DNA from: Octopus vulgaris
Taxonomy: Eukaryota
Assembly (NCBI GenBank): GCA_951406725.2
Contig: OX597822.1
Span: 66,588,001-66,652,000 of the forward strand
DNA: 64,000 nt
Direction: 5' to 3'
In this document: positions 3,698-53,308 of the stretch, one piece after another
How positions within the stretch are numbered: the stretch's first letter is position 1
Layout: each line of letters opens with the position of its first letter
Made by a program: the position numbers and the translations under genes
Notes under the pieces: generated by a model
Told to the model about the DNA's origin: nothing
Databases searched by the model: none
Seen by the model: only the letters and a program-made list of their open reading frames with translations

Positions 3698-3839
3698 ATA
3701 TATATATATATGTGTGTGTGTGTATGCATGCATGTGTCTGTGCGTGTAGAAGGTTGAAAAGGAAGACACGAGTTGATATATATAGAGAAAAAAGTAAAGG
3801 TAGAAAATTCTAAAATAATTCCATAAAAAAACATTTCAG

Positions 3840-3892
3840 AAAAATATGGAATGCTTCACGAATCTGCGTGTCATCCTAGCAAAGGGGCCATG
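3840..3892 (-). pseudogene. RNU6: U6 snRNA 3'-half retrocopy
   Basis: The reverse complement CATGGCCCCTTTGCTAGGATGACACGCAGATTCGTGAAGCATTCCATATTTTT matches the metazoan U6 3' half as I recall it at 48/53 and ends in five T. Confidence 0.92.
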
Positions 3893-3913
3893 AATTCGTG
3901 AAGCGTTCCATAT
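3893..3913 (+). pseudogene. RNU6: Second, inverted U6 snRNA 3'-terminal fragment
   Basis: AATTCGTGAAGCGTTCCATAT is identical to the U6 3' end over 21 nt and abuts the minus-strand copy. Confidence 0.85.
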
Positions 3914-4093
3914 ATCTTTCTGAAAAGTTTTTTTATAAAATTATTTTAGCATTTTCTACCTTGATTTTTTTCCATATATACATATATGTATATATATATA
4001 TATATATAATTTTTTTTCGTAAAGAGATAAAAAACCAAAGCTGAGTAGATTTTAGAACATTTATAGATATGTGTGGTAGGATATATGTATATA

Positions 4094-52567: not shown

Positions 52568-53308
52568 TAAAACAATAATAAATCTCTGAACGAGATATAA
52601 ACAGTAACTGCTCGACAACGTAAGGGGGATCAGCCATCTGAATGTGGCTAGGGACAGGGCGGGGTGGTGGGGGTGTTACTGATGCTTTTAGCCCCAGGCG
52701 ATCATCAACGTCACCAGAAGGACTGACACCATATCAGTGTCCTTGTTTGCCTGTAAACGGAGGTCATCCTCCCTCGAAGATACGGATACTACATACGGAC
52801 CGGTTTCGAGGTCATTAAACAAGGACACTGATATGGTGTCAGTCCTTCTGGTGACGTTGATGATCGCCTGGGGCTAAAAGCATCAGTAACACCCCCACCA
52901 CTCCGCCCTGTCCCTAGCCACATTCAGATGGCTGATCCCCCTTACGTTGTCGAGCAGTTACTGTTTATATCTCGTTCAGAGATTTATTATTGTTTTCAGA
53001 CAGTGTTTCTACATCAGTGACAGTAGTTACTGTGAAAAACCTTATATATGTTGCTTGTGGAGGGAATCCTTCATCGAAGAACGGTACTTACCATACGTTG
53101 ATAAGAGGCAATGACCTCGAAACCGGTCCGTATGTAGTATCCGTATCTTCGAGGGAGGATGACCTCCCTTTACAGGCAAACAAGGACACTGATATGGTGT
53201 CAGTCCTTCTGGTAACATTGATGATCGCCTGGGGCTAAAAGCATCAGTAACACCCCCTCACCCCGCCCTGTCCCTAGCCACATTCAGATGGCTGATCCCC
53301 CTTACGTT
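52568..53308 (+). mobile_element. Penelope-type pLTR insertion: one inverted copy plus a tandem direct partial pair, (TA)n-flanked
   Basis: 52568-52748 is the reverse complement of 52817-52996. 52749-52816 is the reverse complement of ~53110-53177. 53178-53308 repeats 52817-52948. A hammerhead motif lies inside. Confidence 0.85.
53092..53134 (+). ncRNA. Type I minimal hammerhead ribozyme with a mutated core
   Basis: CATACG | TTGATAA | GAGG-CAATGA-CCTC | GAAA | CCGG | TC | CGTATG: perfect stems I and II and a palindromic stem III. The core differs from CTGATGA at two positions. Confidence 0.85.

What the first reader, a model, noticed from the sequence alone, without database searches (positions are those of the whole stretch)
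3781..3980. U6 snRNA 3' end fused to a putative Penelope-type tail, inserted as an inverted pair: possible U6 to ribozyme-product ligation
Seen: two U6 3' ends point away from each other (53 nt on minus, 21 nt on plus). Each is joined to the same ~65-nt tail (CTGAAAAGTTTTTT..ATAAAATTATTTTAGCATTTTCTACCTTGATTTTTTTCC) that runs into TA dinucleotides, giving ~85-bp imperfect inverted arms. The minus copy ends CCATA-TTTTT|CTGAAA, which is exactly the five-U mature U6 end. Established: mature metazoan U6 ends in a 2',3'-cyclic phosphate; hammerhead cleavage leaves a 5'-OH; RtcB joins such ends and has been implicated in mammalian U6/L1 chimeras; inverted 5'-truncated duplication is a Penelope insertion signature (also seen at 52568 here). 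Inference: U6 was ligated to the 5'-OH product of a hammerhead-cleaved Penelope RNA and the chimera was retrotransposed by the Penelope machinery. I know of no description of this route. The tail's parent element is not in this window, so its Penelope identity is unproven.
Basis: partly seen in the sequence, partly recalled or inferred. Interest (0 to 1): 0.85.

Follow-up and report, generated by a model that had tools for sequence, protein, structure and literature searches.

The report
U6 RNA joined to ribozyme cuts
Across this animal genome, copies of the U6 splicing RNA are joined to Penelope-type retrotransposon sequence exactly at the predicted cut site of the element's hammerhead ribozyme, which likely records that these ribozymes cut in the germline and that a host RNA ligase likely joined the cut ends to U6 before the fused RNA was copied back into DNA.

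Summary
Confirmed and extended. The window holds an inverted pair of U6 3' ends, each joined to the same tail. The tail is the 5' leader of a Penelope-like element (RT + GIY-YIG, pLTRs). In ordinary copies a minimal type I hammerhead precedes it, and its predicted cut (GUA|CUG) is the U6 joint. Nine loci of this family share the joint. Ten more loci join U6 to six other tail families, each at that family's predicted hammerhead cut, with five U-positions and no extra bases in 30 of 32 arms. Two U6 gene types are used, so the events are independent. 18S rRNA and U2 fragments also occur at such sites. Cleavage in vivo is therefore very likely (about 0.93); the literature I read lacks such evidence. 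RtcB-type ligation of U6's cyclic phosphate to the ribozyme's 5'-OH is the best mechanism (about 0.65). End-to-end template jumping remains a real rival (about 0.28), because U6-SINE chimeras abound here. No RNA data or ribozyme activity was shown. The boldest reading: these are mis-ligations of a step that normally circularises Penelope RNA.

The parts
3840..3892 (-). U6 snRNA 3' half (nt 55-107), ending in the five-U 3' end; 5'-truncated retrocopy
   Evidence: Rfam RF00026 E 6e-7; blastn to gene-like U6 L022
3839..3840 (-). Joint between U6's last T and the first base after the predicted hammerhead cleavage site (N17) of the Penelope pLTR
   Evidence: Non-U6 copies carry the hammerhead ending GTA immediately before this base
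3746..3839 (-). Long tail: predicted 3' cleavage product (5' leader of the element's mRNA) including the ~40-nt PLE 'tail' extension
   Evidence: 91% identical to pLTR copy L047; the homologous stretch runs on into the ORF in full-length L107
3893..3919 (+). Second, shorter U6 3' end (nt 83-103) with a degenerate U-run; inverted arm
3920..3973 (+). Short tail, same start base, without the extension
   Evidence: 95% identical to pLTR copy L047
3614..3745 (.). Simple-repeat flank, (TATC)n/(TA)n/(TG)n; left insertion flank
   Evidence: Sequence
3974..4009 (.). (TA)n microsatellite; right insertion flank
   Evidence: Sequence

Best explanation
This is a U6 retrocopy joined to the 5' leader of a Penelope-like element exactly at the predicted cut site of the element's hammerhead ribozyme; the ribozyme likely cut the element's RNA in the germline, a host ligase (likely RtcB) likely joined U6's 2',3'-cyclic phosphate end to the resulting 5'-OH, and the element's reverse transcriptase likely started inside the leader and copied across the joint into U6. 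Shown: the parent is an EN+ PLE; the joint equals the predicted N17 site in 7 tail families; the events recur independently. Inferred: cleavage in vivo (about 0.93). Inferred from PAc (PMC11167929): internal RT initiation about 52 and 92 nt downstream of the cut, giving the short and long tails. Inferred from human U6/L1 (PMC6789731): RtcB chemistry. Inferred: the inverted arm arises from a second priming or from fold-back.
For: Hammerhead before the tail in 28 of 31 non-U6 copies examined; 869 exact tail matches have A at -1 against 38 without. A relaxed descriptor ends exactly at the joint with >=2 bp of stem I in 46 of 69 selected native copies, in 0 of 69 at shifts of -2, -1, +1, +2, +3, and in 6 of 69 at -3. 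Rfam alignments put N17 at the joint (HH9 E 0.16; Hammerhead_1 E 0.001; both below gathering score). U6 chimeras occur at 19 loci in 7 families, 32 arms; 30 have five U-positions and no extra base (one search lists 30 of the 32 arms; the other two were read by eye). Two families were searched after the prediction was formed, and both fit. U6-SINE joints have variable 1-9 nt spacers in 32 of 32 measured. Two U6 gene types are used. In 13 of 13 inverted pairs both arms carry U6; in 3 pairs neither arm is contained in the other, so both appear to have been copied from a U6-tail RNA. Internal 18S and U2 fragments join the same site without microhomology, as expected of break ends with cyclic phosphates. 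RtcB circularises hammerhead-cut retrozyme RNA in vitro (PMC7229834, passages).
Against: No RNA-level evidence and no cleavage assay. Of 188 exact U6 ends surveyed, most partners are SINE/LINE sequence, many at apparent SINE 5' starts, which as Pol III transcripts should not carry 5'-OH (recalled); one U6-U6 head-to-tail join also occurs. So U6 capture without a ribozyme is common in this genome. Two joints at the cut site show a 3-nt CTG microhomology (28S fragment L152; SINE L053), which points to switching or DNA-level annealing. Arms often share private variants (L123, L183, L300, L332, and one non-nested pair, L276), so many inverted arms are not independent copies. In families 5 and 7 a TT overlap makes the joint ambiguous by 2 nt. 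Families 2 and 6 have GCAA and family 5 has GTAA in place of GAAA, and might be inactive. Minimal PLE hammerheads cleave poorly in vitro (PMC4209133). Monomer folds are no more stable than shuffles (z -0.35 to -0.81). The descriptor was written after seeing the sequences.
Confidence: 0.65

Rival explanations
1. The ribozyme cuts, the PLE reverse transcriptase runs off the cleaved 5' end and jumps end-to-end onto the 3' end of U6 (or another RNA) without any RNA ligation.
For: Gives the same joint position. Template switching is the classical model for U6-LINE/SINE chimeras (PMC4476161, passages). U6-SINE chimeras and a U6-U6 join are present here. CTG microhomology at 2 joints. A few copies stop at the site and join microsatellite directly (L120, L127).
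Against: No extra bases and a fixed five-U register in 30 of 32 arms, against 1-9 nt spacers at SINE joints. Three non-nested inverted pairs would each need two separate jumps. No intact 3'-OH RNA end (tRNA, 5S, 5.8S) was seen as a partner among the 10 foreign joints or the 3 hits, though this sample is small.
Confidence: 0.28
2. One U6 gene or pseudogene acquired a downstream PLE fragment and spread as a single U6-headed SINE or read-through transcript; the match to the cut site was inherited once.
For: Nine loci of family 1 share one junction.
Against: Seven different tail families and two U6 gene types. No chimeric locus I viewed has a U6 gene's upstream flank (compared by eye). Five T would end Pol III transcription before the tail (established knowledge).
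Confidence: 0.02
3. The joints form at DNA level, or RT stalls at the folded but uncut hammerhead and is rescued by U6; no cleavage occurs.
For: Over 95% of tail matches keep an A at -1. PAc inserts from uncut RNA in vitro, and no reads ended at its site (PMC11167929).
Against: A stall should fall at the 3' edge of stem I, several bases downstream, and vary with stem length (2-7 bp across families). The joint instead tracks N17 to the base.
Confidence: 0.05

Closest known systems
Mammalian U6/LINE-1 chimeras formed by RtcB ligation (Moldovan et al. 2019, PMC6789731; passages read)
   Same: Intact U6 3' end with 4-6 T joined in sense to a retroelement RNA, then retrotransposed
   Different: There the L1 5'-OH ends are variable, with no specific L1 sequence. 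Here the acceptor end is fixed at a ribozyme cut and the carrier is a Penelope-like element, not a LINE.
U6 chimeras with L1, L2, RTE and SINEs in vertebrates (Doucet et al. 2015, PMC4476161; passages read)
   Same: U6 fused 5' of a retroelement in non-mammalian genomes; the same class is abundant in this genome
   Different: Attributed to template switching; the word Penelope has 0 occurrences in the main text; no ribozyme-defined joint in the passages read.
[quoted passage not shown]
   Same: Short stem I, palindromic stem III, U3-A8 core variant, location in pLTRs
   Different: That paper states there is no in vivo evidence of cleavage and proposes circularisation only tentatively. Here genomic joints mark the cut.
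PAc (Poseidon) internal RT initiation (Frangieh et al. 2024, PMC11167929; parts 1-2 of 4 read)
   Same: Two 3' ends downstream of the hammerhead defining the tail; AT-rich targets
   Different: The parent here has a CX4CxxC linker (Neptune/Nematis type). That study found the ribozyme dispensable in vitro and no RNA ends at its site.
Metazoan non-LTR retrozymes (PMC7229834, passages; bioRxiv 10.64898/2026.07.22.740005, abstract and term search)
   Same: Hammerhead-cut RNA is an RtcB substrate in vitro; retrozymes are proposed PLE derivatives
   Different: Non-coding tandem repeats that self-circularise; no capture of host snRNA in what I read (snRNA 0, RtcB 0 occurrences in the preprint).

Membership tests
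Functional U6 gene | Full-length U6 with its upstream promoter flank | tested here: not met
   Only nt 55-107 and 83-103 present
EN+ Penelope-like element (parent) | RT followed by C-terminal GIY-YIG endonuclease | tested here: met
   L107 and L110: RVT_1 E 3e-8; GIY-YIG E 0.0047 and 0.00015, both under Pfam's cut-off. Their pLTRs are ~80% identical to the tail's subfamily; that subfamily lies downstream of the same endonuclease remnants in L054, L064, L113.
EN+ Penelope-like element (parent) | pLTRs flanking the ORF, with a hammerhead in the pLTR | tested here: met
   L107 has two pLTRs, each with the motif
EN+ Penelope-like element (parent) | Inverted 5'-truncated copy and a 30-40 nt tail at one end | tested here: met
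   Window and other loci; feature defined in PMC8557442
Neptune clade | CX2-5CxxC linker before GIY-YIG | tested here: met
   CX4CxxC read in L106/L109 translations; also shared by Nematis
Neptune clade | RT phylogeny groups with Neptune references | not tested
   No reference sequences were on hand from a tool
Minimal type I hammerhead | Core (C3-G8 or U3-A8), GAAA, UH, stems I and II, palindromic stem III | tested here: met
   Families 1, 3, 4, 7, 8. Stem II differs by a compensatory pair between subfamilies. Families 2, 5, 6 deviate in GAAA.
Minimal type I hammerhead | Reaches an Rfam gathering score | tested here: not met
   15.2 bits against 52; 22.6 against 34
Minimal type I hammerhead | Self-cleavage activity | not testable with these tools
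   Needs an assay
RtcB-type U6 ligation chimera | Intact U6 3' end with 4-6 U joined without extra bases | tested here: met
   30 of 32 arms
RtcB-type U6 ligation chimera | Chimeric RNA exists independently of reverse transcription | tested here: inconclusive
   No RNA holder listed; only contigs could be laid
RtcB-type U6 ligation chimera | Dependence on RtcB, cyclic phosphate and 5'-OH | not testable with these tools
   RtcB and Usb1 genes were not searched in this genome either
snRNA-headed SINE spreading from one master | One head-tail combination amplified from a master copy | tested here: not met
   Seven tail families, two U6 types

The most novel reading that the evidence does not exclude
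Penelope-like elements normally cut their RNA at the pLTR hammerheads and rely on host RtcB to close the unit-length RNA into a circle. Because RT starts only 50-90 nt downstream of the cut, a linear cut RNA could yield only that short piece, whereas a circle restores the site seamlessly and lets RT read on into the element's 3' end. The U6, U2 and rRNA chimeras are mis-ligations in which a host cyclic-phosphate end beat the element's own end, so they are a genome-wide fossil record of ribozyme activity and usable to map active cut sites in any PLE-rich genome.
Probability: 0.35. Interest if true: 0.95.

Novelty: new variant of a known kind. Interest (0 to 1): 0.86.

Why it matters
What hammerheads do in Penelope-like elements is an open question. 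The papers I read report no in vivo cleavage evidence (PMC4209133), a role 'still unclear' (PMC8557442), and no RNA ends at the site in an anole element (PMC11167929). Joints that fall on the predicted scissile bond in seven families, including unusual core variants, argue that these ribozymes cut in the germline and that cut RNA is still reverse transcribed. It also identifies a defined natural source of 5'-OH ends for U6 chimeras. The question becomes directly testable: the junction sequence, the ligase and the expected circle are all specified.

Tried and rejected
Expression: no RNA holder listed; four runs guessed to be RNA gave contigs only, with no informative end at the cut site; not used as evidence. 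Rfam on 15 whole loci gave only microsatellite-driven miRNA hits; narrowed scans found 18S and a weak U2 hit (E 4.8), the latter confirmed by 38/38 identity to a U2 gene. Pfam did not recognise the short broken ORF pieces of L064. Of the 13 loci viewed, seven (L155, L159, L160, L161, L163, L167, L169) were chance matches without the tail and were dropped. The 25-nt spacer of L128/L129 matched neither the rDNA unit nor U2. Parents of the U6 partners in L336 and L339 were not searched genome-wide; a related native copy in L054 suggests a family-5-like site; both loci are left out of the 19. L271 and L272 are assigned to family 3 by tail similarity only. Folding energies were not significant. Earlier findings of this scan: none. 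Literature searches for prior description: (0 papers); none listed a U6-Penelope or ribozyme-site chimera, but the library lacks most subscription papers, and no supplements were read.

Full report
OBSERVATION. The window lies at G000:C9:66588001-66652000 in a 2.8 Gb animal assembly. No tool named the organism; from recalled repeat features it looks like an octopus. The region holds a U6 3' half on the minus strand (3840-3892; Rfam E 6e-7) and a shorter U6 3' end on the plus strand (3893-3913). Each is joined to the same tail, in an inverted pair between simple repeats. The minus tail is about 94 nt and the plus tail 54 nt. The plus arm's U-run is degenerate.

THE TAIL IS A PENELOPE LEADER. 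The tail is a repeat with at least 907 exact pattern matches (869 + 38). Copies of the same subfamily lie downstream of GIY-YIG-type ORF remnants (L054, L064, L113). A related subfamily, about 80% identical in the pLTR, has a full pLTR-ORF-pLTR copy (L107) with RVT_1 (E 3e-8), a weak GIY-YIG hit under Pfam's cut-off and a CX4CxxC linker. In L107 the tail after the 5' pLTR runs on into the ORF, so it is the element's 5' leader. One long and one short 3' end, inverted 5'-truncated arms and microsatellite targets match published PLE anatomy (PMC8557442, passages). In the anole element PAc the two ends are internal RT start sites downstream of the hammerhead (PMC11167929, parts 1-2).

THE JOINT IS THE PREDICTED CUT. 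In 28 of 31 non-U6 copies the tail is preceded by a minimal type I hammerhead: 3-bp stem I, U3-A8 core, 4-bp stem II, GAAA, palindromic stem III, GUA then the tail. The U3-A8 variant and this architecture are described for PLEs (PMC4209133, parts 1-2). Rfam's HH9 model aligns weakly (E 0.16) with N17 at the joint. All 11 U6 junctions found by pattern, at 9 loci, start the tail at that base.

IT GENERALISES. I listed 188 exact U6 3' ends with 17 nt of flank (the pattern skips ends whose last listed letter is C). Twenty were joined to tails assigned to a family with a located hammerhead-like motif and two more were unresolved. With this gives 19 loci in 7 families: family 1 (9 loci), 3 (3), 4 (2), 5 (1), 6 (2), 7 (1), 8 (1). 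In each family native copies carry a hammerhead-like motif that ends at the U6 joint; for two family-3 loci the assignment rests on tail similarity. Family 4 is canonical (Hammerhead_1, E 0.001, below gathering score). Families 7 and 8 were searched after the prediction was formed and both fit. A relaxed descriptor ended at the joint in 54 of 69 native copies, and with at least 2 bp of stem I in 46 of 69; shifted by -2, -1, +1, +2 or +3 it fit 0 of 69, and at -3 it fit 6 of 69. The 69 were selected: 27 of 31 (family 1), 7 of 13 (family 2, the 18S partner), 9 of 13, 7 of 9, 5 of 8, 7 of 9 and 7 of 7; I dropped copies that were truncated, rearranged or off-register at the motif. Family 8 was read by eye in 4 of 7 copies. 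The descriptor was written after seeing the data. Endonuclease remnants were seen beside families 1 and 3 only; the other families are called PLE-like from tail, inversion and hammerhead anatomy.

INDEPENDENT EVENTS. Two U6 sequence types exist as gene-like copies (L022; cluster L029-L033). Chimeras use both: C6:121083k and C4:141885k score better with the second type. With seven partner families this excludes one master copy.

OTHER PARTNERS. Of 38 family-1 matches without A at -1, 28 look like point variants by the 7 letters listed (3 viewed in full) and 10 are foreign joints or rearrangements at the site. These are 2 U6 arms, an 18S rRNA fragment, a U2 fragment, nt 56-93 (38/38 to a U2 gene), 2 microsatellite joins, a SINE, a 25-nt spacer between two arms, and a deletion. 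The 18S and U2 joints have no microhomology. A 28S fragment in the younger subfamily and the SINE joint each share CTG with the tail. An eighth family has an 18S fragment joined at its own hammerhead-like site in both arms.

LIGATION OR JUMP. For ligation: 30 of 32 U6 arms have five U-positions and no extra base (30 arms listed, two read by eye; the exceptions are the window's plus arm and a deleted arm at C6:121083k). Five U is the mature human U6 end, and RtcB needs its cyclic phosphate and a 5'-OH (PMC6789731, passages). All 32 U6-SINE joints measurable among 101 U6 ends had 1-9 nt spacers, although these may be natural SINE leaders. Both arms carry U6 in 13 of 13 inverted pairs. In three pairs (C1:192047k, C3:85068k, C25:22215k) the short-tail arm has more U6 and the long-tail arm has more tail, which simple fold-back cannot make. 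Against: most U6 chimeras here have SINE or LINE partners, many at apparent SINE 5' starts, and one is U6-U6, so capture without a ribozyme is common; two joints show microhomology; and arms often share private variants, so they are not always independent copies. I put ligation at 0.65, jumping at 0.28, and cleavage in vivo, needed by both, at about 0.93.

WHAT WAS NOT SHOWN. No RNA carrying the junction, no cleavage assay, and no search for RtcB or Usb1 genes in this genome. Run data were uninformative. Monomer folds of three hammerheads were not more stable than shuffles; published minimal hammerheads are thought to work as dimers and cleave weakly.

NOVELTY. U6 chimeras with LINEs and SINEs, RtcB ligation of U6 to L1 RNA, and hammerheads in PLEs are each known. 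I found no description of U6 or other host RNAs joined at a retroelement ribozyme's cut site, or of U6-Penelope chimeras, in eight searches (listings) or in term searches of PMC4476161, PMC11838501 and the 2026 retrozyme preprint. The library misses most subscription papers and I read no supplements, where such cases could be listed. Verdict: a new variant of a known kind, with high interest because it bears directly on whether and why PLE hammerheads cut.

Noticed in passing
window 52568-53308: Another inverted PLE-like insertion in (TA)n; it carries a clean U3-A8 hammerhead with a 6-bp stem I at 53092-53134 (+), predicted cut after 53128.
   Followed up: partly
L123, L183/L209, L175: Three independent 18S rRNA retrocopies end within about 6 nt of each other, just before a GC-rich stretch of this 18S; possibly a natural break site.
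   Followed up: no
matches: Most U6 retrocopies in this genome are fused just upstream of the apparent 5' start of three SINE families, with 1-9 nt spacers; an unusually large U6-SINE chimera set.
   Followed up: partly
L248 (G000:C2:23366674-23366902): Head-to-tail U6-U6 dimer.
   Followed up: no
L341 (G000:C20:43471600-43472400): Two full-length U6 copies with 3' ends facing across a (TA)n tract and no tail.
   Followed up: no
L029-L033 (G000:C1:139.42 Mb): Tandem cluster of at least seven U6 gene-like copies; the five viewed are of a second sequence type with compensated 5' stem changes.
   Followed up: partly
families 2, 5, 6 (L210-L221, L319-L325, L347-L355): Hammerhead-like cores with GCAA or GTAA in place of GAAA, and A3-U8 in family 5; joints still fall at their predicted N17, hinting that these variants cleave.
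   Followed up: partly
L107 (G000:C1:225576500-225582500, minus): Full-length PLE whose coding region lies in two overlapping frames (437 and 762 aa); the same arrangement is seen in L108.
   Followed up: no
L128/L129 (G000:C3:24230932-24231007): Two family-1 arms both start exactly at the cut site and are bridged by 25 nt of unknown origin.
   Followed up: partly
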